DNA from: a virus
Reading direction: 5' to 3' (one strand)
Virus record (IMG/VR): IMGVR_UViG_3300045919_000631
Location: 1-64,000 of that record
Length of the DNA: 64,000 nucleotides
Part shown: positions 3,461-32,516 of the stretch, in pieces
Layout: every line of letters starts with the position of its first letter
How positions within the stretch are numbered: the first letter of the stretch is position 1
The notes under the pieces: model-generated
The model's database searches: none
The model's input: the letters and a program-made list of their open reading frames with translations, nothing else
Told to the model about the DNA's origin: nothing
Program-made: the position numbers and the translations under genes

Positions 3461-4015
3461 TTATGACATTTCCTGTATAACTTTTTTCATTGCTGATTTA
3501 ATCTCTCGGAGATCTTTAGCAAGGTCTTTCTTTGTGTATGTGTCAAAACCTTTTTGCATTGCTGATGCAGCAATATCAAGTCCAACGTCTTCGAAGCGTT
3601 TAAGCTTCTCGAGCCAATAATCGTTTTGAAAAGCTCGCAGATCAGCCCGGATTTGATCTGGAGTCAAGGCCTCTCCGTCTCTGTTCAGAAAATATTCTGC
3701 GTCGCGACCAAGACCAAGCTCAAGCTCGGCATCGATATAATATGCACGCATACGCGGCGACAAATCAACGAAATCTTCATCAATGAGAGTTGAAAGATTA
3801 TAGCCTGATTTCTTTTTAGGATAATCATGCACAGTACCTTTGATGAAGCGAAATTGGCCATCTTCATTTACGCCAGTTTCAAGGTGACCCCAAAACTTCC
3901 AATGCTCATGCGGGGTACTATTTTCCCAGGCTCCATCAGAGAGTTGCCCAGAAATTTCGTGCTCCCAAATTGCGTGCAAGCCTTTACTAGGAAATAACCA
4001 CGTATGTTTGTTCAT
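3461..4015 (-). CDS. hypothetical protein
   Basis: 184-aa ORF behind GGAAA-N5-TAAAAT promoter variant (4024-4039). Confidence 0.7.
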   Translation of the reverse strand: MNKHTWLFPSKGLHAIWEHEISGQLSDGAWENSTPHEHWKFWGHLETGVNEDGQFRFIKGTVHDYPKKKSGYNLSTLIDEDFVDLSPRMRAYYIDAELELGLGRDAEYFLNRDGEALTPDQIRADLRAFQNDYWLEKLKRFEDVGLDIAASAMQKGFDTYTKKDLAKDLREIKSAMKKVIQEMS

Positions 4016-12577: not shown

Positions 12578-13297
12578 TTAGAACTTCAAGCTATAACCGC
12601 CGCTATAACCTGTGATTTGTCCATTGTTGTTAGTAAAGCCATTGCGATGAACAAAGACACCTGCTCCGAGATCACCATGCTTGGTTACATATCCAACACC
12701 AAGACCACCAGTATAATAGCGCTTTGCGTTCTTATATGCAGCAACTGTGAAGGAGCCAGGATCGTTGAAACCGACGCCAAAGCTTGGGACTACCTTGAAG
12801 CCCTTATAGACAGGGATCCGAACTTTAGTGGTGCCTTCATAATTGACTGAATGATTTTTCGTGTCAAAACGTGCTGTCAGATCAAGAGGAATGATCGTTG
12901 AGTTACCGCTCACTCTGATAAACGGCACTGTATTGTTCTTGAAACCATCAAATGCAGCTGTTCGGCTCACATTCTTGTAAGTTGCTCCAAGCTCTAAATC
13001 AGCAATAGTCGCTACGAATTTGTAGCTTGCTGTGACATCAACTCGCTTGAAAAGGCCAGCCTTAACGGTGGTCTTATTCAAATTAGCTGTATCAATATTG
13101 CTGTAGGTCTCGACACCGACACCAACACCGTAAAGGCTTGTTGATGCGCCTGCTGTCGCAACATTTGTTTCTGTCACAACACCTTGCTCAAGAAGCTTCG
13201 ATGTATATCCAACGTTGGCAGTCACATCGAAGGGAACTCCTGCGAATGCAATGCCGGCTGTAAGCACAAGAAGTGCAATTAGTTTAGTTTTATTCAT
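12578..13297 (-). CDS. outer-membrane beta-barrel protein
   Basis: Sec signal peptide ending AFA, alternating beta-strand pattern, C-terminal YSLKF BAM signal. Confidence 0.8.
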   Translation of the reverse strand: MNKTKLIALLVLTAGIAFAGVPFDVTANVGYTSKLLEQGVVTETNVATAGASTSLYGVGVGVETYSNIDTANLNKTTVKAGLFKRVDVTASYKFVATIADLELGATYKNVSRTAAFDGFKNNTVPFIRVSGNSTIIPLDLTARFDTKNHSVNYEGTTKVRIPVYKGFKVVPSFGVGFNDPGSFTVAAYKNAKRYYTGGLGVGYVTKHGDLGAGVFVHRNGFTNNNGQITGYSGGYSLKF

Positions 13298-16422: not shown

Positions 16423-16497
16423 TGGAAGACCGGGACGGAATTGAACCGACGAATAACAGGTTTGCAAGCTGCTGCCTAACCATTCGGCATCCGGTCT
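16423..16497 (-). tRNA. tRNA-Cys(GCA)
   Basis: ttGCAaa loop, U73, CCA. Confidence 0.9.
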
Positions 16498-17280: not shown

Positions 17281-17405
17281 TGGAGTCGGATAGCGGAATC
17301 GAACCGCCTGTACTTCGAAGGTACGATCACCGTAGGCTTAATACCAACCAGGAGAGGCGTAAATGGTGCCTCTGAAGAGAATCGAACTCTATCTCCATAC
17401 CCGAC
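17281..17405 (-). ncRNA. two-headed tRNA-like RNA
   Basis: two TTCGATT T-loops, two acceptor-like stems, each followed by NCCA. Confidence 0.65.
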
Positions 17406-17766: not shown

Positions 17767-17856
17767 TGGCGGAGAGCAGGGGACATGATCCACAACCCAT
17801 TTAAGGATCTCATCGTTTAGCAAACGAGCCTAGTATGCCTATCTAGTTTACTCTCC
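17767..17856 (-). tRNA. tRNA-Ser(GCT)
   Basis: tcgt-ttGCTaa-acga, long variable arm, G73. Confidence 0.85.
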
Positions 17857-17865
17857 AAAAATTTA

Positions 17866-18114
17866 TTACGCCATCACTTTGTCTTTTAATCGACGAGCAA
17901 TGCTGTAGTGTTTATTAAACTCGTTAGTTAACTTTTCACTACGAGCAATCTTTGCAGCCTGTGCATGAAATGTATAAAGAGCTCTCGGATCTTTACAATT
18001 CTCAATGCCAGGTACACTATTAACAAAATTGTGATAATCGTTCTCAGAGTCAAGCGCGGCTCTATTAATTGCAGCAACGCTTAAGATGTTATTTACAGCT
18101 TCGTTAAAGGTCAT
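17866..18114 (-). CDS. hypothetical protein, possible internal head protein
   Basis: MTFNEAVNNIL N-terminus, TAAATA upstream. Confidence 0.65.
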   Translation of the reverse strand: MTFNEAVNNILSVAAINRAALDSENDYHNFVNSVPGIENCKDPRALYTFHAQAAKIARSEKLTNEFNKHYSIARRLKDKVMA

Positions 18115-20659: not shown

Positions 20660-20904
20660 TGTAATTCTTCTTTTGTTAAAGCCCAGCGTGTGCCTGTAAA
20701 TCTAGAGGCTATTACTTTTTTGTTTCTTAACTTTTTCCAATACCTCACCATTGCATCATCAGAGTCCCACAAAAACGATCCAAAGGGTTTTGATTGTATC
20801 CCATCTTTATTCTCTGGGCCAGTGGTCTTAAAAAAGAGTAAATTAGTCTTAATGAATTCAGGACCCTCTTCTATCGCATCAACACCAGCTAAAAAATTGT
20901 TCAT
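20656..20904 (-). CDS. hypothetical protein (FLxGxDAIE N-terminal family)
   Basis: MNNFLAGVDAIEE. Confidence 0.65.
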   Translation of the reverse strand: MNNFLAGVDAIEEGPEFIKTNLLFFKTTGPENKDGIQSKPFGSFLWDSDDAMVRYWKKLRNKKVIASRFTGTRWALTKEELQ

Positions 20905-21872
20905 AAAAATACTTCTTTAAATTTCTGCATGACGTTCTTTGGGGAGAATCTCTCTGTATACATATCACACTCAAAGGCGTTAACTTTAGCTTTATTAATC
21001 TTAATCATTTTCTCGTACAAATCTTCCAAGCCACTATACAATATGGCTTTAGTGCCAAGAATATCTAAATGAGCTCTATCATATTGATGAACCATTTGAT
21101 TATCCCACCAGCCGTCCCAAGTAAAGATTGCTTTGCCCATTGCACTAAATTCAGCAACAGCAAGACCAAAAGTCTCGCCATCAGCTCTTGCATGAATCAT
21201 TGCATCTGCGGTGTTAATAAATTTACGTTTATACGTTCCATCAACATCAGCATTAAAAGGTAAAAATTTAACGCGTGAGTGGTCAATAAAAGGCGTTGTG
21301 TTCATAAACACGAAATACAAATCAGGCCGTCTATCTAAAGCAGCTAAAATTGCAGCATGGACAAATGGTAGGTTAAATTGATCCTTACCACCTAGTCGCC
21401 CAAACACAAATGCATCCTTAGGAATGCTTAGCTCGTCACGCAAATCCGTATCAATGCGAGGCATATCAACTATATGCGGAACCCACAGCGGTTGGCTGTA
21501 TTTTTTCGCAATATATTCTGATACACCTGCATAGACATCACCATAGGGCTCAGTCATGACAAAAACGCAATGAATGCCAACTTTACAGTTATTTGGAATC
21601 CAATCTCTTGTACCCCAACGAGCCATAACGATGACATCTATTTTCTCTTTGTCGATGATCTTCGGTAAATCATTTTGCATGTCGTCGTAAAGAATACAAC
21701 GAACATTTGCTTTCTCAAATTTTTCAATGGGCATAGTGCCATTGCCAATGTTGCCTTTACCGCTAATGGCAAATGCATCCAATCCTAAAACTGATTGCAA
21801 ACCTTTTGCGTAATCTAACGCAACAACGCCAGTGCCGCGCTCTAATGTATTAACGTGAAAAGCAACTTTCAT
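20901..21872 (-). CDS. GT-B glycosyltransferase (GT4-like)
   Basis: ERGTGV, DAMIHARADGETFGLAVAEF. Confidence 0.85.
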   Translation of the reverse strand: MKVAFHVNTLERGTGVVALDYAKGLQSVLGLDAFAISGKGNIGNGTMPIEKFEKANVRCILYDDMQNDLPKIIDKEKIDVIVMARWGTRDWIPNNCKVGIHCVFVMTEPYGDVYAGVSEYIAKKYSQPLWVPHIVDMPRIDTDLRDELSIPKDAFVFGRLGGKDQFNLPFVHAAILAALDRRPDLYFVFMNTTPFIDHSRVKFLPFNADVDGTYKRKFINTADAMIHARADGETFGLAVAEFSAMGKAIFTWDGWWDNQMVHQYDRAHLDILGTKAILYSGLEDLYEKMIKINKAKVNAFECDMYTERFSPKNVMQKFKEVFL

Positions 21873-23464: not shown

Positions 23465-23872
23465 TGGTGTAGGCGGCCGGATTTGAACCGGCGTGTATGC
23501 TGCCTTGTCAACCAGTTTCTACAAGTTTAGATTTATAAAATTCATAACGAGCAGCATAAATCAAACTGCATCGCAATTACTCTAACATTCTAACTTTCTA
23601 CTAGAACTGCGGATAAGGTTAGCCAACTCCGCAGTGCCATCTCACTGTTACGATTTGGTAGATAGTGAGAATCTTTACCAACTCGTTCACCTTTAATTAG
23701 GCGAATGAGAGCTCTCCGGACGGGATGGTGACTAGGTCACGAACCTTCGCGAAGAAACTCTTAACTGAATTTACAATGTTGTTTATTGTTTGAAGCGATA
23801 TTAAAGAGCATTGCATCATTGCTCTACTTGCTACTGGACTTTCCGGCATCATATAGAATCCAGAACGCCCAC
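23465..23872 (-). ncRNA. ssrA: tmRNA
   Basis: 5' gtgggcgttctggattc, 3' gccggttcaaatccggccgcctacacca, G3:U70; internal tag frame 23780-23697 ending ELSFA*. Confidence 0.9.
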
Positions 23873-23918: not shown

Positions 23919-24014
23919 TGGTGGTCCTATATTTCGTTTCCATTTGAACTACTCCCCAAATTTTACAATTGATATTATTTGGCTTTCATTCTGAGTCTAC
24001 CGCAGCCTAGGACC
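23919..24014 (-). ncRNA. CCA-ended tRNA-like element without canonical T/anticodon arms
   Basis: 7-bp ggtccta/taggacc plus ACCA. Confidence 0.55.
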
Positions 24015-24027
24015 TATGGTGGCAAAA

Positions 24028-24103
24028 TGGTGGGTGCACCGGGACTCTAACCCAGAACCAACTCCTTAAGAGGGAGCGACTCTAACAATTGAGCTATACA
24101 CCC
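24028..24103 (-). tRNA. tRNA-Lys(CTT)
   Basis: gctcc-ctCTTaa-ggagt. Confidence 0.9.
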
Positions 24104-24113
24104 AGAAAATTAA

Positions 24114-24326
24114 TTGAGTATTGCCGGGCTTGATTCCGGCTCAATGTGTTCTCACACGACTGCACCATCTCAGTTTACTGCAATCAGGGCTGCGTTACTT
24201 CTGAGCGCGACTTCAGACATTCCGCTGCGGCCGGTCGCTGGTTTCCGTGTTTATCACCAGTGCAGATTTTATTCCAGATCTCAACCCATACCCCTGTTGC
24301 GTGGGTCCATCCCCACCGATACTCAA
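24114..24326 (-). ncRNA. ~210-nt unclassified structured RNA
   Basis: terminal stem ttgagtat/atactcaa, D-like and T-like hairpins at each end, GC-rich. Confidence 0.65.
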
Positions 24327-24330
24327 AAAA

Positions 24331-24408
24331 TGGCGTCCCTGAAGGGATTTTAACCCTTGTTGATGCATTGAGAATGCAGTTTCCTAAGACAGACTAGAAG
24401 ACAGGGAC
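24331..24408 (-). tRNA. tRNA-Glu(CTC)
   Basis: tgca-ttCTCaa-tgca, G73. Confidence 0.85.
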
Positions 24409-24741
24409 GTTCTGTTGCAAAGCTTCATCGATCTTTGCTTGAAACTCTGGGCTCTCATATCTATTAATAAGAGCTGCAAAGTATCTATAAAGGCTTGTAT
24501 GTGTTGGACGCGAGCGAATCGTATCAACAATTCCTCGATAAGCGGCAACAGACATTCGCGCTTTGAAGCGCTGTTCATTTACGAAGTTGATAGAGACCTC
24601 TTTTGCTTTTTCGATATCATCATCGTAATTATTTTTAATGATACCAAACAATGTTCGGAAAATGGAAGGGTGTGCAACATTCTCTTTCCCCGTTGCTTGA
24701 CCTTTCCATGATTGGAATTGCTTACCAAGGTTATGAATCAT
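24394..24741 (-). CDS. hypothetical protein
   Basis: 115-aa ORF behind GGAAC promoter. Confidence 0.65.
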   Translation of the reverse strand: MIHNLGKQFQSWKGQATGKENVAHPSIFRTLFGIIKNNYDDDIEKAKEVSINFVNEQRFKARMSVAAYRGIVDTIRSRPTHTSLYRYFAALINRYESPEFQAKIDEALQQNVPVF

Positions 24742-24749
24742 GCAACATA

Positions 24750-24765
24750 ATTATATCACTGTTCC
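24750..24765 (-). promoter_or_regulatory. GGAAC-N5-TATAAT promoter
   Basis: ggaac-agtga-tataat. Confidence 0.75.
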
Positions 24766-24782
24766 GTGTGAGAACTTTAAAA

Positions 24783-24857
24783 TGGTAGCCCCACCGGGAT
24801 TCGAACCCGGATAATCGCAGTGAAAGTGCGGTAAACTAACCGTTATTCTATGAGGCC
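24783..24857 (-). tRNA. tRNA-Glu(TTC)
   Basis: cgca-ctTTCac-tgcg. Confidence 0.92.
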
Positions 24858-24939
24858 GTAAATTGGTATCACGTTCAGGTGTTATTTTAACGCGATGGAA
24901 GTATCCTAACTGGTCCTGTTGCTACTGCAGTAGCGAGAT

Positions 24940-25014
24940 TGGAGGCAGGGACGGCGTTTAAATCCGTTGCTGAAGGTTATGAGCCTACTGAGTTATCACA
25001 TACTCTACCCTGCG
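24940..25014 (-). tRNA. tRNA-Met(CAT), initiator-like, divergent
   Basis: ctCATaa loop, C1 mismatch, cgcaggg 5' end, atypical T-loop. Confidence 0.72.
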
Positions 25015-25022
25015 TCAAAAAA

Positions 25023-25099
25023 TGGTACCAGGTGAGGAACTCGAATCCCCAACATCTTGAATGTAAATCAAGTGCTCTAACCAATTGAGCTAACCCGGC
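25023..25099 (-). tRNA. tRNA-Val(TAC)
   Basis: cttga-ttTACat-tcaag. Confidence 0.92.
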
Positions 25100-25104
25100 A
25101 TAAC

Positions 25105-25226
25105 AAAGTACTTTTTATTAGATCGGGGTTTAAAGCCGATTTGCCTTAACCATTAGGCTATCTTGGCATGGAGCCAGGAGTTGGATTTGAACCAACGTGT
25201 CTTTTAGACATTGCTGTGAGTACTTT
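25105..25226 (-). ncRNA. circularly permuted tRNA-like RNA (Y RNA/YrlA-like topology)
   Basis: order V-arm, T-arm, acceptor 3', loop, acceptor 5', D-arm, anticodon-like arm, closed by aaagtact/agtacttt. Confidence 0.75.
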
Positions 25227-25230
25227 TAAC

Positions 25231-25291
25231 TAAGCGCATTTATTTTCGAGATAATAGTTCGAATTTTATTTTGGATTGCTGTGTGCGCTTA
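25231..25291 (-). ncRNA. short CACAGCAA-motif hairpin RNA
   Basis: taagcgca/tgcgctta stem followed by cacagcaat, as in the neighbouring element. Confidence 0.55.
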
Positions 25292-25297
25292 AAGATG

Positions 25298-25381
25298 TTG
25301 TAAGTGTACTGCCATACTATACTATGCGAGACCCGGCTAAACGTAATCCAGCAGGAGACTTCGAACCTCCCCTTCTTACAA
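25298..25381 (-). ncRNA. second circularly permuted tRNA-like RNA
   Basis: ttgtaag/cttacaa closing stem, T-arm ggagg-ttcgaag-tctcc, closed acceptor hairpin, D-arm with GG. Confidence 0.68.
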
Positions 25382-25383
25382 AT

Positions 25384-25459
25384 TGGCACGTCCGGCCGGA
25401 GTTGAACCGACATAAGGTGGATTTGGAGTTCACTGCCCTACCACATGGACCACAGACGT
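25384..25459 (-). tRNA. tRNA-Trp(CCA)
   Basis: ctCCAaa loop, G73. Confidence 0.9.
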
Positions 25460-25665
25460 GTAAAATTTGTAGTCCATTTTTCATCATGTTACCATGGGAT
25501 GGACCGATCCGTTTCCACTCTTTAGTCTGGAAGCTCAGCGAGCTTAGGGCTCGGAACCTTATTAAGATTCTTACACTCTACTGCAACCACTCTTTTGCGC
25601 AGCATAATCTCCAGCGAACTTTGTGATCGTTGCCAAAGGTGTCTGCGCTTACATTGAGCAGAAAT

Positions 25666-25760
25666 TGGTGCTAGTTTTATCTGAATCTTGCCCTTGGGCC
25701 TAATAAGAACTGCAACTTAATCAGGATACGAGGCTTGCCAACATCAGACCTTTAACTAGC
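25666..25760 (-). ncRNA. CCA-ended non-cloverleaf RNA
   Basis: 7-bp gctagtt/aactagc plus ACCA, inner tctga/tcaga. Confidence 0.55.
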
Positions 25761-25769
25761 AAAGGAAAT

Positions 25770-25844
25770 TGGTGGTAGAAGAGGGGCTTGAACCCTCAAC
25801 CTTATCCTTATGACGGATTTGCGCTACCATTGCGCCATTCTACC
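25770..25844 (-). tRNA. tRNA with CAT anticodon (Ile2 or elongator Met)
   Basis: atcc-gtCATaa-ggat; acceptor resembles the phage tRNA-Ile(GAT). Confidence 0.85.
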
Positions 25845-25848
25845 GAAA

Positions 25849-25923
25849 TGGTGGGCCAAGAGGGACTTGAACCCCCAACGCCGAGATCTTCACTCTCGCG
25901 CTCTACATTGGAGCTATTGACCC
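25849..25923 (-). tRNA. tRNA-Phe(GAA)
   Basis: cgaga-gtGAAga-tctcg. Confidence 0.9.
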
Positions 25924-25967
25924 ATTTAAATTGAATGCCTAGCATTTCTGCTAGGACTTTTGTTTTC

Positions 25968-26063
25968 TTATTCGCTACAAGACTTGTTGTTGTAGTCTTC
26001 GTGAGTTATTACTCCAACTAAAGCAACAGCCAAATAGGCGATTATGATGGTTACAATTTGCAT
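25968..26063 (-). CDS. 31-aa membrane microprotein
   Basis: MQIVTIIIAYLAVALVGVITHEDYNNKSCSE with AAGGA upstream. Confidence 0.45.
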   Translation of the reverse strand: MQIVTIIIAYLAVALVGVITHEDYNNKSCSE

Positions 26064-26150
26064 TGTTTCCTTTGTCCTTAGAACTGATGCCCGTAGGTTA
26101 ACCAGTTGTTAAAATGGTGGGATTAATAGTAATCGACTTCTTAAAAGAAA

Positions 26151-26226
26151 TGGCCCCCACACGGGAAATCGAATCCCGATAAATGGATAGACAATCCATG
26201 GTACTAAGCCGTTGTACGATGTGGGG
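26151..26226 (-). tRNA. tRNA-Asp(GTC)
   Basis: atgga-ttGTCta-tccat, G73. Confidence 0.88.
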
Positions 26227-26233
26227 CTTTAAA

Positions 26234-26851
26234 TTACAGCCAGCTTGGTCCTTTTTGATCAACTGGAATTTTTAAAATCTTTCTTACTAACCATTTTACC
26301 CACCAATACGCGGTGAGCTTTAATGATTGAAATTTTAAGAGCGTATGATTACCAACAATAATTGAAGCACCATAACGCTTAACAACTCTTACATGGCCTG
26401 CTGTTTCGTGGCAAAGTTTAGTGACATCAACGATACTACCACCATAGGCTTGATCGCTCCAATTGTCAACTAAAATATCTGCTCCCATTCTGTTTCCAGA
26501 ACCTTTTACAACACCTCGTAAAATTGCGTGGCTTGCTCCTTTTACACTAAAAATTTGATTACCAAGACCATTTTGCGATTCACCGAATGAACCGTGTAGC
26601 ATTGTCGTGGCGTGATTATTAATATCAACCGAGCATTCAGCTCCTTGATTGACTACTAGACCGCTGAGACTTACGATACTAAAATCGCAAATCTTTAAAA
26701 TGCTTGCATATTGCACAGGGTGATCTGGCGTTAATACGGCATTGTCTCCTGGGTTATTTGCTGGTGTTGGATTAGAACTACCGGCGTTTGATTCCCAGAC
26801 ATTGTTGCTTACTGATAGGTAATTAACATCTACTTTGGTTGAACTGCTCAT
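26234..26851 (-). CDS. hypothetical beta-rich protein with C-terminal amphipathic helix
   Basis: true start MSSSTK behind TAAATA; the ORF-track extension overlaps tRNA-Tyr. Confidence 0.7.
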   Translation of the reverse strand: MSSSTKVDVNYLSVSNNVWESNAGSSNPTPANNPGDNAVLTPDHPVQYASILKICDFSIVSLSGLVVNQGAECSVDINNHATTMLHGSFGESQNGLGNQIFSVKGASHAILRGVVKGSGNRMGADILVDNWSDQAYGGSIVDVTKLCHETAGHVRVVKRYGASIIVGNHTLLKFQSLKLTAYWWVKWLVRKILKIPVDQKGPSWL

Positions 26852-26868
26852 GATGTTATTTATTAAAA

Positions 26869-26953
26869 TGGTGGGCATAGAAGGACTCGAACCTTCGGAG
26901 ACGTTAGTCAGCTGATTTACAGTCAGCCACAATTGCCGCTATGTGATACACCC
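26869..26953 (-). tRNA. tRNA-Tyr(GTA)
   Basis: gctga-ctGTAaa-tcagc, long variable arm. Confidence 0.93.
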
Positions 26954-27208
26954 GAAACTGCGCAGTCTCTCCTGCTGTCAAGCCTAGATCATCGCGCTCG
27001 GCTTTCAGGCTAAATTGGCCTGGCTTTTATTTAAAGACGATCCAGGGCTCGTCATAAAGAACAACTAACTTATTGACTCTTCGTCCTCACAAGCACGGAT
27101 TTACATCCTTCCTGGTTTTGGGGCCCGCAAAACATTTCCTATAATAAGAAATGGCGGCTATTTCATACGCTTCGAGGCGCGCTTTTGCCTATATCTAAAT
27201 TGAACTGT

Positions 27209-30241: not shown

Positions 30242-30289
30242 TTGAGATAAATGCTATTTTAATGTTGTTCCTTGATAAATATTAAAACG

Positions 30290-31510
30290 ATGATTTCGCG
30301 ACCAATTTCAGATGTGTATGCTCGTATTATTCTTAATGAGTATAGCGAAGGGTTTATTAAAGCTCAAATGGAGCGTTTAAAACGCTCAGCTGGTCCACAC
30401 GTGACTGAAGAAATGATGCGCTCATATATTGAGCGATTTGATCAATTAAAGTCAGGACAGGCATCGAAAGCGCAAATTATCCAGCTTGTTAGACAATTTA
30501 TAGCAGGTGGTCAAATCGCTGCTGATCCGCAATATGGTCCAAGAGATGCTGAGCGCATTAAAAAATTAGCGGCAAATCCGCTTGAGCTTGGGTTTTATAA
30601 CTGGCATGATTTGGAAATCGTCAAGGACTCATTTAGAGATCCTGCTGATAAAAAAGCACAAAAAATGGCTAATCCTGAGGACACAGGAGCGGAATTGATT
30701 TATAATGATCATGGTTTTCAGATTTATTGGGCTGAAGATATGAACGCTTGTATAAAGTTTAAGCAGTGGATCACAAATAAAACAGCAAAAAGTGGTGAAA
30801 CTGGTAATGCGTATGGATGGTGTATTAGTTATAAACCATCCAGTAATCTATACGCAAATTATCGATTTGGAAAAGATAGAGCGAATGCTAGCATTTATTT
30901 CGTTGTTGATTGGAACATCCCACCAAGCAATCCAAACCATTGTATCGTTTTAATGGCTTTACAAGATGGTCGGTACAGATTATCTGATGCAACAAATAAC
31001 ATGTCAAGAGAAACTGTCACAGGATGGGACACTGTTGTTCAATGGATTCCAAAGATTCGTGATTTGAAAGGATTGATTACGTTTAAACCATTTTCTGAAG
31101 CAGAAGAGCTTTACAATATAACTCGCACAGCTACAGCTGCTGACTTTGCTGGATATACAAGATATAATGTTAAGCAGGCGTATATCGGTGCTGGTAAGCC
31201 AATTAATTCTGAAGACTATCTCAAACTCCCTCAAGAGTTGCAGCATTTATATGTTAATGTTCGCTGCCCAACGCCAGAAAATGATAACTTGAATTTGTTG
31301 CTGTATGGTATCTTTGCTAATACAGACGCTGATAGAGTTAGAGCTGCGATTAAAACTGTTAGAGATTTATACTTACAGAAAGACCCAAATTACAGAGAGC
31401 CTCTATTGTGTGAGCCAACTGTGATGAAAGGCGATAATCAAACATACAAATATTATCGCAAACTTGTCAACGATGCTATCGAGGCAAAAGGTAAAGGTCG
31501 AAGAAACTGA
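30290..31510 (+). CDS. hypothetical late protein
   Basis: ~406 aa, GWCIS...YANYR...IYFVVD motif, TAAATA at 30276. Confidence 0.75.
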   Translation: MISRPISDVYARIILNEYSEGFIKAQMERLKRSAGPHVTEEMMRSYIERFDQLKSGQASKAQIIQLVRQFIAGGQIAADPQYGPRDAERIKKLAANPLELGFYNWHDLEIVKDSFRDPADKKAQKMANPEDTGAELIYNDHGFQIYWAEDMNACIKFKQWITNKTAKSGETGNAYGWCISYKPSSNLYANYRFGKDRANASIYFVVDWNIPPSNPNHCIVLMALQDGRYRLSDATNNMSRETVTGWDTVVQWIPKIRDLKGLITFKPFSEAEELYNITRTATAADFAGYTRYNVKQAYIGAGKPINSEDYLKLPQELQHLYVNVRCPTPENDNLNLLLYGIFANTDADRVRAAIKTVRDLYLQKDPNYREPLLCEPTVMKGDNQTYKYYRKLVNDAIEAKGKGRRN

Positions 31511-31601: not shown

Positions 31602-32516
31602 TCACTCATCAGTCTTTACTACGTGAAATACAGCGTCAACTCCACGACCATATTTTTCAATTAGGCCCATGTCTTGCATGTCTTTCAAGATAATATATGC
31701 TTGCGATGGCGTTAATCCAAGCTCTTTTATAACTCTTCCTTTAGAGATAAAAGGCTCATTCTTCATTGCAAGAATTTTGGTAATATTAGCATCTTGACGC
31801 TTCTTCTTATTGAGAGGGATCTCTTCAGTTTCTTTGGGACCACTAAAGAGAAACCCACTCTCTGTCATAAAGCTATTAAAATCGTTACAAGAACCGAAAC
31901 GGTTTTTATATACAGAGATTACCCGCGCTGAAGAGTCTTCAGTGTCTTCATCGAGAGTAATTTGCATATTAACATCGCATATATGAGGAATGAGAGAGTT
32001 GCCTTTCAAGGTGCCTGCCTTTGTGAGGTGCATCACAAAGATAACAACACATTCATGATCTTTTGCGTGCTTAACTAAGCTATTAATTGCAAATGTCTCA
32101 TGCTCTCTTGTGTTCATATCTTCATCCTTTTCAAGAGCTTGGAATGAATCAATTACAAGCACATCATTATCCTCAATAGCTTTCAACAATTTATCAACGT
32201 CGGTCTCATTTGCGATGCGCACGTTTTGCACATTAAGACGCTTGCAATTATATGCAAGTTGGTGCAAACTTTCTTCACCAGATGCATGAGCAACGGTGTA
32301 ACCAGCTTTGCTAAGCGATTCAAGTAATTGAAGCAAAAACGTGGTTTTGCCTAAGCCAGCGCGAGCCGTAATAGTGATACTTGACCCCGGAAGCAATCCC
32401 TCGCCAAAGATTCTATCCAGCTCTTCAACGTTAGATTTAATACGACGATAAAATACATCAGGTATTTGTACATCAGAAGCTTTTACAAATTCTGTTCGTT
32501 CAAGTCCAAGGTTCAT
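31602..32516 (-). CDS. RadA/Sms-like RecA-fold ATPase
   Basis: AGLGKTT Walker A, SGEES, VIDSFQ, HLTKAG, KNRFG. Confidence 0.9.
   Translation of the reverse strand: MNLGLERTEFVKASDVQIPDVFYRRIKSNVEELDRIFGEGLLPGSSITITARAGLGKTTFLLQLLESLSKAGYTVAHASGEESLHQLAYNCKRLNVQNVRIANETDVDKLLKAIEDNDVLVIDSFQALEKDEDMNTREHETFAINSLVKHAKDHECVVIFVMHLTKAGTLKGNSLIPHICDVNMQITLDEDTEDSSARVISVYKNRFGSCNDFNSFMTESGFLFSGPKETEEIPLNKKKRQDANITKILAMKNEPFISKGRVIKELGLTPSQAYIILKDMQDMGLIEKYGRGVDAVFHVVKTDE

What the first reader, a model, noticed from the sequence alone, without database searches (positions are those of the whole stretch)
25298..25381. Second permuted tRNA mimic, opened at the anticodon loop
Seen: ttgtaag, T-arm ggagg-ttcgaag-tctcc, hairpin tgctggattacg-tttagc-cgggtctcgca (closed acceptor), D-arm gta-tagtatggcag-tac, cttacaa. 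The RNA ends form the anticodon-stem equivalent, so it has no anticodon and no chargeable end. Inference: an elbow-only mimic that resembles an anticodon-cleaved tRNA. Two unrelated sequences with this topology within 300 bp argue for selection.
Basis: partly seen in the sequence, partly recalled or inferred. Interest (0 to 1): 0.75.

Follow-up and report, generated by a model that had tools for sequence, protein, structure and literature searches.

The report
Back-to-front tRNA look-alike in phage
Between two ordinary tRNA genes of an uncultured wetland jumbo phage lies an 84-base gene for a tRNA "turned inside out" (amino-acid end sealed, anticodon loop missing), most likely a tRNA-shaped decoy or adaptor RNA of the kind known from bacterial Y RNAs, though I found no evidence yet that it is conserved or expressed.

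Summary
On the minus strand, 25381 to 25298, every arm of a tRNA is present in circularly permuted order: closing helix, 4-nt variable region, T arm, sealed acceptor hairpin, U8-A9, D arm, closing helix. A strict descriptor finds only this site in the 109-kb record and none in 100 shuffles. Rotated and given a dummy anticodon loop, ARAGORN calls it a tRNA. It has no anticodon loop and no CCA, although all 26 ARAGORN-called tRNAs here encode CCA.

The topology equals the tRNA-like domain of YrlA Y RNAs (Chen 2014), but the element is not a YrlA member. The Rfam model does not hit it, it lacks a Ro60-binding stem, and no Ro60/TROVE or DUF2828 gene occurs in the held half-genome or in the nearest 99%-complete relative.

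This scan has reported permuted tRNA mimics on an "ACAGCAA handle" in other phages. The two neighbours here carry that handle; this element does not. I found four bare analogues in other jumbo phages, two of them in phages that encode TROVE.

No homologue, variant or RNA read was found, so selection and expression are unshown. Best reading: a non-chargeable tRNA-shaped mimic RNA (about 0.5). Main rival: a remnant of a tRNA rearrangement. It is a new variant of a known kind, of moderate interest.

The parts
25375..25381 (-). 5' strand of the closing helix (equivalent of the anticodon-stem 3' strand, extended to 7 nt)
   Evidence: Pairs 7 of 7 Watson-Crick with 25298-25304. Pair probability is 0.9-1.0 for six of the seven pairs in the thermodynamic ensemble.
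25371..25374 (-). 4-nt variable region (AAGG; G at the position of G46)
   Evidence: Sequence reading; descriptor parse var=4.
25354..25370 (-). T arm: 5-bp stem (loop-closing pair is G-U) and a 7-nt loop TTCGAAG with T54, T55, C56 and A58
   Evidence: ARAGORN drawing.
25347..25353 (-). Acceptor 3' strand. It is followed by TTAC, not by a discriminator plus CCA.
   Evidence: Pairs 6 of 7 with 25325-25331 (one G-U, one C-U mismatch). All 26 ARAGORN-called tRNAs here end in CCA.
25332..25346 (-). 15-nt cap that seals the acceptor. It can extend the hairpin by two G-U pairs and two G-C pairs around a bulged A.
   Evidence: The extended hairpin lowers the cloverleaf energy from -11.6 to -16.0 kcal/mol.
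25325..25331 (-). Acceptor 5' strand
25323..25324 (-). U8 and A9
25306..25322 (-). D arm: 4-bp stem (one U-G) and a 9-nt loop with A14, G15, G18, G19 and A21
25298..25305 (-). A26 and the 3' strand of the closing helix (equivalent of the anticodon-stem 5' strand)
25384..25459 (-). Context: complete tRNA-Trp (CCA) whose encoded CCA end lies 2 nt upstream of the element
   Evidence: ARAGORN; Rfam tRNA 44.1 bits.
25231..25291 (-). Context: hairpin H, an 8-bp closing stem followed by CACAGCAAT. It starts 6 nt downstream of the element.
   Evidence: The stem is kept in the MFE fold of the 284-nt segment.
25105..25233 (-). Context: neighbour E1. It has a closing stem plus CACAGCAAT, a V-like hairpin, a T arm, an acceptor with internal TCCA and a 1-nt joint, a D arm, and an anticodon-like arm with a 9-nt loop.

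Best explanation
The element is a gene for a small tRNA-shaped non-coding RNA module: a circularly permuted tRNA.

Steps and their standing:
1. Inferred: it is transcribed as part of the phage's minus-strand tRNA operon. The spacers on either side are 2 nt and 6 nt.
2. Inferred: it is released when the flanking tRNAs are processed, either alone (84 nt) or as the first domain of the 283-nt Trp-to-Val interval together with the two handle-bearing RNAs that follow it.
3. Shown for the sequence, inferred for the fold: it folds into a tRNA L-shape. The sealed acceptor hairpin stacks on the T arm, and the 7-bp terminal helix takes the place of the anticodon stem.
4. Shown from the sequence: it has neither an anticodon loop nor a CCA end, so it cannot be charged, decoded or cut by an anticodon nuclease.
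5. Inferred: it works by presenting a tRNA elbow and an acceptor/T minihelix to proteins that recognise tRNA shape. That is how the tRNA-like domain of YrlA-type Y RNAs is thought to work. The partner could be a Ro60-like particle, tRNA-modifying or processing enzymes, or host tRNA-targeting defence proteins.
For: 1. Full permuted cloverleaf with 22 of 23 designed pairs standard and all elbow nucleotides present.
2. Unique in the record, with 0 hits in 100 shuffles.
3. It fills the gap between tRNA-Trp and the next RNA element almost exactly. The three elements between Trp and Val are packed with spacers of 2-6 nt, like genes of a processed operon.
4. No resident tRNA is its parent: the best local match is 9 nt. 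It is therefore not a fresh duplicate, yet its helices are intact while the CCA that every ARAGORN-called tRNA here has is missing.
5. The same architecture, standalone and not overlapping any tRNA, recurs in other jumbo-phage tRNA arrays:
   - N2: L104 minus 18155-18069, acceptor capped by a UUCG tetraloop.
   - N3: L107 minus 8903-8831, also directly after a tRNA.
   - N4: L128 plus 3858-3935.
   - N5: L224 minus 2001-1933.
   N4 and N2 get full-length sub-threshold YrlA matches (38.5 and 29.7 bits). The phages carrying N3 and N4 encode canonical TROVE proteins.
6. The published precedent has the same V-T-AS-D order. YrlA takes tRNA modifications, and the M. smegmatis form is cut by RNase P (PMC4201824). 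A crystal structure shows a true tRNA fold without a free CCA (bioRxiv 10.1101/312249).
Against: - No homologue of this particular element was found, so there is no covariation or conservation evidence.
- The nearest relative, G048, lacks it at the syntenic slot.
- The two public runs that hold the locus are DNA contigs with identical sequence.
- The Rfam YrlA model gives no match even at E<=10 in a 311-nt search.
- There is no Ro60-binding stem or GNCGAA motif, and no ACAGCAA handle.
- No TROVE, DUF2828 or RtcB gene occurs in the 109 kb held. G048, which is 99% complete, has neither TROVE nor DUF2828.
- Free-energy folding does not favour the cloverleaf: the acceptor and D helices have under 10% ensemble probability. 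The same is true for a quarter of the real tRNAs here.
- The T-stem G53-U61 pair and G15/G48 depart from the tRNA consensus.
Confidence: 0.5

Rival explanations
1. The element is a non-functional remnant. The middle of a tandem pair of related tRNA genes (3' half of copy one, spacer, 5' half of copy two) has exactly this permuted order and pairs automatically. The element would be what is left after the outer halves were deleted or replaced, or a decayed member of the handle RNA family.
For: - Tandem paralogous tRNAs in other phage arrays score as pseudo-permuted tRNAs with both my descriptor and my model. An example is the Val-Val pair at L102 9428-9502.
- Chen 2014 warns of the same artefact.
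- Phage tRNA arrays are in rapid flux: the relative G048 has other content after tRNA-Trp.
- There is no conservation or expression evidence for the element.
- It departs from the tRNA consensus at G53-U61, at G15/G48, and by a mismatch in the acceptor.
Against: - No parent tRNA is left in the genome. The event would therefore be old or imported, yet 22 of 23 pairs and all elbow nucleotides survive.
- Both outer halves would have to be removed flush with the ends of a 7-bp helix, leaving spacers of 2 nt and 6 nt.
- Standalone analogues with deliberately sealed acceptors (a UUCG tetraloop in N2) recur in unrelated phages.
Confidence: 0.27
2. The element is a cis-acting processing signal. Its acceptor/T-arm minihelix recruits RNase P, or another tRNA-processing nuclease, to cut the polycistronic transcript. 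That would help to free the neighbouring handle RNAs, which have no tRNA ends of their own. The element itself would be a by-product.
For: - It lies between a tRNA and two non-tRNA RNAs in a tightly packed operon.
- It has a 7-position acceptor stem. In M. smegmatis YrlA a 7-bp stem suffices for RNase P cleavage (PMC4201824).
Against: - The predicted RNase P site lies inside the element (between 25332 and 25331), not at a boundary of a neighbour. Cleavage there would not trim hairpin H or E1.
- The acceptor has a mismatch and no RCCA.
- A conserved D arm and closing helix are not needed for such a signal.
Confidence: 0.1
3. The element is a true permuted tRNA gene, as in Cyanidioschyzon or Thermofilum. 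The transcript would be circularised, and then opened at the acceptor to give a working tRNA.
For: - The 3' half lies upstream of the 5' half, with matching acceptor and anticodon-stem strands.
- Phages often carry RNA ligases (PMC7824862).
Against: - There are no anticodon-loop nucleotides: the two ends form a flush helix, and the flanks give no U33/R37-type loop.
- There is no CCA after the acceptor 3' strand.
- No RtcB was found.
- No bulge-helix-bulge motif is present, and bacteria have no splicing endonuclease for one.
Confidence: 0.03
4. The element is a chance arrangement of hairpins in AT-rich intergenic DNA.
For: The MFE z-score of the element alone is only -0.42.
Against: 0 of 100 shuffles of the whole record give a hit. 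ARAGORN accepts the rotated form. T-loop and D-loop signatures lie at the right distances.
Confidence: 0.01

Closest known systems
YrlA (Y RNA-like A, Rfam RF02553): tRNA-like Y RNAs bound by bacterial and mycobacteriophage Ro60/Rsr (Chen et al. 2014, PMC4201824; Wang et al. 2018, bioRxiv 10.1101/312249)
   Same: - Same order of parts: variable region, T arm, sealed acceptor-like stem-loop, D arm.
- The RNA ends leave through the anticodon-stem position.
- The tRNA tertiary nucleotides are kept.
- No free CCA and no anticodon loop.
- Also found in phages that carry many tRNAs.
   Different: - No Ro60-binding helix or GNCGAA motif: only a 7-bp terminal helix, boxed in by a tRNA 2 nt upstream.
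- The Rfam model does not match it at any threshold tried.
- No TROVE gene in the held 109 kb or in the nearest complete relative.
- It lies inside a tRNA operon rather than beside rsr.
Phage 'handle' RNAs: a 7-bp closing stem followed by ACAGCAA, carrying tRNA-derived interiors, reported by earlier stages of this scan beside DUF2828/Ro60-like genes. I found no publication on them.
   Same: - A 7-bp closing stem enclosing a permuted tRNA module.
- Located in a phage tRNA array.
- Two such RNAs (E1 and hairpin H) are its immediate downstream neighbours.
- I re-found handle-type permuted tRNAs in other phages (L134, L198, L100), two of which encode DUF2828.
   Different: - The defining ACAGCAA motif is absent: the closing strand runs straight into the 4-nt variable region.
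- No DUF2828 gene in the held sequence.
Circularly permuted tRNA genes of Cyanidioschyzon merolae and Thermofilum (general knowledge; reviewed in PMC4090602, a search hit that I did not read)
   Same: The 3' half is encoded upstream of the 5' half. An intervening sequence joins the acceptor strands.
   Different: Those genes rebuild a complete anticodon loop and a chargeable CCA end through a bulge-helix-bulge splice. This element has no loop residues, no CCA and no such motif.
Two-piece (permuted) tmRNA genes of alpha-proteobacteria and cyanobacteria (general knowledge)
   Same: A bacterial-world precedent for a permuted tRNA-like gene. Its acceptor is first sealed by an intervening segment, which is then excised.
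   Different: tmRNA keeps a chargeable CCA end and a tag reading frame. This phage has a separate, standard one-piece tmRNA at 23465-23872.

Membership tests
YrlA (RF02553) | tRNA-like domain in the order V region, T arm, sealed acceptor-like stem-loop, D arm | tested here: met
YrlA (RF02553) | Match to the Rfam covariance model (gathering score 69 bits) | tested here: not met
   No match at E<=10 in three searches: 24000-27000, the whole record, and 25090-25400. By contrast, analogues N4 and N2 get full-length sub-threshold matches of 38.5 and 29.7 bits.
YrlA (RF02553) | Ro60-binding module: long terminal helix with a GNCGAA(N)G motif near the 5' end | tested here: not met
   The terminal helix is 7 bp. 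tRNA-Trp ends 2 nt upstream. There is no GNCGAA motif outside the T loop.
YrlA (RF02553) | Encoded within about 4 kb of a Ro60/TROVE gene, same strand | tested here: not met
   No PF05731 match in the 109-kb record. phmmer of phage TROVE proteins against all ORFs of 150 aa or more finds nothing. The record is only about 52% complete. Relative G048, 99% complete, also has none.
YrlA (RF02553) | Bound by Ro60; carries TruB/DusA-type modifications | not testable with these tools
   No RNA data. The only runs that hold the locus are DNA contigs.
Phage handle RNAs (closing stem + ACAGCAA; from earlier notes of this scan) | ACAGCAA directly after the 5' strand of a roughly 7-bp closing stem | tested here: not met
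   The closing stem is present, but AAGG and the T arm follow it. The only intergenic CACAGCAA sites are at 25211 and 25276, in the two neighbours.
Phage handle RNAs (closing stem + ACAGCAA; from earlier notes of this scan) | DUF2828 (PF11443) Ro60-like gene in the same genome | tested here: not met
   No match in the record or in G048. The genome is incomplete, so this is not final.
Canonical tRNA (RF00005) | Contiguous acceptor, D, anticodon, T, acceptor order with a 7-nt anticodon loop and a 3' CCA or discriminator end | tested here: not met
   Not called by ARAGORN or the Rfam tRNA model. It is recognised only after rotation with a dummy loop.
Circularly permuted tRNA genes (Cyanidioschyzon type) | Joining the transcript ends restores a full anticodon loop (or another loop) through a bulge-helix-bulge splice | tested here: not met
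   The ends form a flush 7-bp helix. The flanks give no loop with U33 and a purine 37. No RtcB.

The most novel reading that the evidence does not exclude
The element would be a handle-free, Ro60-independent tRNA decoy. It would be a sealed tRNA body that the phage makes alongside its real tRNAs. Its job would be to soak up host defence or stress proteins that recognise tRNA by its elbow and acceptor/T minihelix, such as non-anticodon tRNA nucleases, tRNA-fragment sensors or nucleotidyltransferase toxins. It would itself be immune because it has no anticodon loop and no free 3' end. A variant of this reading: the element and the cargo-less handle hairpin 6 nt downstream form a split unit, with cargo and handle side by side instead of nested.
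Probability: 0.12. Interest if true: 0.8.

Novelty: new variant of a known kind. Interest (0 to 1): 0.45.

Why it matters
Phage tRNA arrays are now read mainly as spare parts against host tRNA-cleaving defences. If they also encode sealed tRNA look-alikes that cannot take part in translation, the arrays hold a second class of product. That class would act on tRNA-binding proteins rather than on the ribosome.

This element is the barest form I have seen: a tRNA body with neither the Ro60-binding stem of YrlA nor the ACAGCAA handle of its neighbours. It sits in a lineage where no Ro60-like gene was found. It could therefore show what the tRNA-like module does on its own, and it is small enough (84 nt) to test directly.

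As it stands it is a single, unconserved, unexpressed-as-far-as-known example, which limits its weight.

Tried and rejected
Searches for relatives or copies of the element:
1. blastn of 24700-26300 against GenBank phages gave only scattered tRNA matches.
2. An exact 24-nt T-arm/acceptor pattern in IMG/VR gave 0 hits.
3. A T-loop plus D-arm pattern in JGI metagenome contigs gave 0 hits.
4. A single-protein search with the RadA-like ATPase (31602-32516) in IMG/VR gave 0 hits.
5. The ORF at 24394-24741 has no homologues among 5.8 billion proteins.
6. The glycosyltransferase at 20901-21872 has many 50%-identical homologues. Their 80 loci carry almost no tRNAs and no permuted tRNA. Their full records did give tRNA arrays to scan.

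Sequencing runs:
8. No RNA holder was listed. The two DNA holders (wetland metagenomes, two studies) are contigs identical to the window, so they give no variants, ends or expression data.

RNA models:
9. A covariance model built from the element alone (R1) found only tandem-tRNA junctions, and missed the analogue N2 because of its short cap.
10. MAFFT could not align the element with N2, so no multi-sequence model or covariation count was made.

Search for a partner protein:
11. There are no matches for TROVE, RtcB, DUF2828 or Gp23 in the record.
12. The 412-aa protein at 30272-31510 was folded (pLDDT 80) and has no PDB match, so it is not Ro60-like.
13. The protein at 1527-2969 looks SPFH/Band 7.
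14. The other large ORFs are terminase, tail sheath, DnaB and a metallophosphatase.

Other:
15. The Rfam tRNA model links this element's D arm to E1's T arm across 98 nt at 15 bits. I rejected this because the acceptor strands do not pair.
16. A loose scan for stem-plus-AGC motifs was too noisy to use.
Coordinates of analogue N3 were therefore read off by hand.

Full report
WHAT THE WINDOW IS

The window is the first 64 kb of a 109,280-base IMG/VR virus record, estimated to be about 52% complete. The genes show a tailed myovirus-type jumbo phage:
- tail fibre and baseplate wedge
- T4-type terminase, tail sheath and DnaB

It has no close cultured relative. The same sequence occurs in wetland metagenomes from two studies.

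From about 12.0 to 31.6 kb the minus strand carries a tRNA operon:
- 26 tRNAs by ARAGORN
- two more tRNAs by Rfam, plus a one-piece tmRNA

THE OBSERVATION

Read on the minus strand from 25381 down to 25298, the 84 bases give the following parts in order:
- a 7-nt strand
- a 4-nt variable region
- a T arm: 5 bp with the loop TTCGAAG
- a 7-nt acceptor 3' strand
- a 15-nt cap
- a 7-nt acceptor 5' strand
- U8-A9
- a D arm: 4 bp with a 9-nt loop carrying A14, G15, G18, G19 and A21
- A26
- a 7-nt strand that pairs perfectly with the first one

Evidence that it is real:
- A strict descriptor of this architecture hits only this site in the whole record, and nothing in 100 dinucleotide-preserving shuffles.
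- When I rotated the two halves and inserted a dummy 7-nt loop, ARAGORN called a tRNA in all six variants.
- It is not the known artefact of two adjacent tRNAs. The upstream neighbour is a complete tRNA-Trp ending 2 nt away. The downstream neighbour is a non-tRNA hairpin.

Free-energy folding is neutral:
- The MFE z-score is -0.42.
- The cloverleaf lies 4.5 kcal/mol above the MFE.
- Six of the 26 real tRNAs here are as far or further from their MFE.

WHAT IT LACKS

- There is no anticodon loop. The ends form a flush helix.
- There is no CCA. The acceptor 3' strand is followed by TTAC, while all 26 ARAGORN-called tRNAs encode CCA.
- No resident tRNA resembles it beyond the universal motifs.

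SURROUNDINGS

Three non-tRNA elements fill the 283 nt between tRNA-Trp and tRNA-Val, with spacers of 2 to 6 nt:
- this element
- hairpin H (25291-25231), an 8-bp stem followed by CACAGCAAT
- E1 (about 25233-25105), a closing stem followed by the same CACAGCAAT and enclosing a T arm, an acceptor with an internal CCA, a D arm and two further hairpins

Earlier notes of this scan describe a widespread, apparently unpublished family of phage "handle" RNAs. These have a closing stem plus ACAGCAA and often carry permuted tRNA bodies. They lie beside a DUF2828/Ro60-like gene.

I treated those notes as leads. H and E1 fit the handle description. The element under study does not, because its closing strand runs straight into the variable region.

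COMPARISON WITH YrlA

Chen et al. 2014 (PMC4201824) describe YrlA Y RNAs of bacteria and mycobacteriophages with the same order of parts (V, T, sealed acceptor-like stem, D). Their findings:
- The RNA ends form the Ro60-binding stem.
- The RNAs carry tRNA modifications.
- The M. smegmatis form, with a 7-bp acceptor stem, is cut by RNase P and receives CCA.

Wang et al. 2018 (bioRxiv 10.1101/312249) solved the domain. It is a true tRNA fold without a free CCA. The element therefore works like this domain on paper.

Membership fails on three counts:
- The Rfam YrlA model gives no match at E<=10 in three searches, including one restricted to 311 nt. Its only hits in this genome are tandem-tRNA junctions.
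- There is no long terminal helix and no GNCGAA motif.
- No TROVE, DUF2828 or RtcB gene is in the 109 kb. phmmer with phage TROVE and DUF2828 proteins against all ORFs of 150 aa or more finds nothing.

The 412-aa protein next to the array, which looked faintly repeat-like, folds with pLDDT 80 and matches nothing in the PDB.

RELATIVES

This phage is isolated. A neighbouring ORF has no homologues at all. Two proteins gave handles on other viruses.

The glycosyltransferase at 20901-21872 (about 50% identity) led to 43 IMG/VR records, many with large tRNA arrays.

The 412-aa protein (41% identity) led to G048, a 211-kb, 99%-complete phage with 22 tRNAs. This is the best relative I found.
- G048 has no TROVE and no DUF2828.
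- After its tRNA-Trp it carries a different RNA of about 94 nt, closed by an 8-bp stem whose 3' strand reads ACAGCACA.
- It has no homologue of the element.

Pattern scans of IMG/VR and of JGI metagenome contigs for the element's own T-arm and D-arm words found nothing. There is thus no conservation or covariation evidence for this particular sequence.

ANALOGUES

Scanning 1.44 Mb of tRNA-rich phage DNA (1,323 tRNAs) with a flexible descriptor, and discarding anything that overlaps a called tRNA, left four standalone modules: this element, N2, N4 and N5. A fifth, N3, was found by eye.

| Name | Locus and coordinates | Record | Notes |
|---|---|---|---|
| N2 | L104 minus 18155-18069 | 363-kb phage G036 | 14-bp closing stem; acceptor capped by UUCG |
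| N3 | L107 minus 8903-8831 | 345-kb phage G043 | directly after a tRNA; 5-bp closing stem |
| N4 | L128 plus 3858-3935 | G044 | |
| N5 | L224 minus 2001-1933 | G047 | |

- N4 and N2 get full-length but sub-threshold YrlA matches (38.5 and 29.7 bits).
- G043 and G044 encode canonical TROVE proteins. In G043 the gene is about 100 kb from the array.
- G036 has neither TROVE nor DUF2828.
- Handle-type permuted tRNAs turned up in G045 and G028, both with DUF2828.

Sealed, permuted tRNA bodies are therefore a rare but recurrent product of jumbo-phage tRNA arrays, roughly one per few hundred tRNAs in this biased sample. They come in a bare form and a handle form. N3 is the closest analogue of the element studied here.

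The same scans showed how easily tandem paralogous tRNAs imitate the pattern, for example the Val-Val pair in L102. This is also the obvious evolutionary route to such genes.

INTERPRETATION

Shown:
- the architecture
- its statistical oddity
- its lack of an anticodon loop and of CCA
- its position in the operon
- the absence of a parent tRNA
- the recurrence of analogues elsewhere

Inferred:
- that it is transcribed and stable
- that it folds as a tRNA
- that it acts by being recognised as tRNA-shaped

I put about 0.5 on a functional tRNA-shaped mimic. The partner is open: a Ro60-like particle encoded in the missing half of the genome or by the host, tRNA enzymes, or host tRNA-targeting proteins.

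The other readings:
- remnant of a tRNA rearrangement, or decayed family member: about 0.27
- cis processing signal: 0.1
- true permuted tRNA gene: 0.03
- chance: 0.01

VERDICT

It is a new variant of a known kind: a YrlA-like tRNA mimic stripped to the tRNA body. The class has been seen before by this scan on other DNA.

Interest is moderate (0.45). The object is clean and testable, but it is a single example without conservation or expression data.

Noticed in passing
window 25105-25233 (minus): Neighbour E1. It has a closing stem followed by CACAGCAAT and encloses a V-like hairpin, a T arm, an acceptor 3' strand with TCCA, a 1-nt joint, an acceptor 5' strand, a D arm, and an anticodon-like arm with a 9-nt loop containing UUA. 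The rotated form is not called a tRNA by ARAGORN.
   Followed up: partly
window 25231-25291 (minus): Hairpin H: an 8-bp stem followed by the same CACAGCAAT word as E1, with a small inner hairpin and no tRNA body. It starts 6 nt after the element studied. It could be a cargo-less handle next to a handle-less cargo.
   Followed up: partly
window 25460-25769 (minus): A 310-nt gap between tRNA-Met and tRNA-Trp with no called gene. It contains a stretch of about 95 nt closed by a 7-bp acceptor-like stem followed by ACCA (about 25760-25666), and further hairpins.
   Followed up: no
window 24334-24408 and 16426-16497 (minus): Two tRNAs found by the Rfam model (49.4 and 45.7 bits) but missed by ARAGORN.
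   Followed up: no
window 17325-17391 (minus): A T arm and acceptor 3' strand with ACCA, followed after 5 nt by a strand complementary at 6 of 7 positions. This is probably a junction of two unusual tandem tRNAs that ARAGORN did not call. It shows how pseudo-permuted patterns arise.
   Followed up: no
window 23465-23872 (minus): Phage-encoded one-piece tmRNA (Rfam 87.6 bits) inside the tRNA operon.
   Followed up: no
L242 4203-4296 (minus), record G048: In the nearest relative, the slot right after tRNA-Trp holds an RNA of about 94 nt closed by an 8-bp stem. Its 3' strand, not its 5' flank, reads ACAGCACA. An unusual tRNA follows it, found by Rfam only (44 bits), whose D arm resembles that of the element studied.
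   Followed up: partly
L107 about 12950-13090 (minus), record G043: A YrlA-like element with a closing stem of about 18 bp, a T arm, an acceptor with GCCA and a D arm (partial YrlA match, 30 bits). It lies in a phage that encodes a canonical TROVE protein about 100 kb away and also carries the bare analogue N3.
   Followed up: partly
L104 about 17820-18010 (minus), record G036: Just downstream of analogue N2 there is a tRNA-like gene that appears to be interrupted by a long insert containing the word ACACAGCAAG.
   Followed up: no
window 20901-21872 (minus): A glycosyltransferase-like protein inside the tRNA array. It has about 50%-identical homologues in many jumbo phages and in giant-virus bins.
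   Followed up: partly
window 30272-31510 (plus): A 412-aa protein beside the array, with 17 homologues, all without a source-given function. The AlphaFold model is confident (pLDDT 80), but no solved structure matches it.
   Followed up: yes
window 24394-24741 (minus): A 115-aa ORF between two tRNAs with no homologue in the 5.8-billion-protein collection, not even itself. It may not be a gene.
   Followed up: partly
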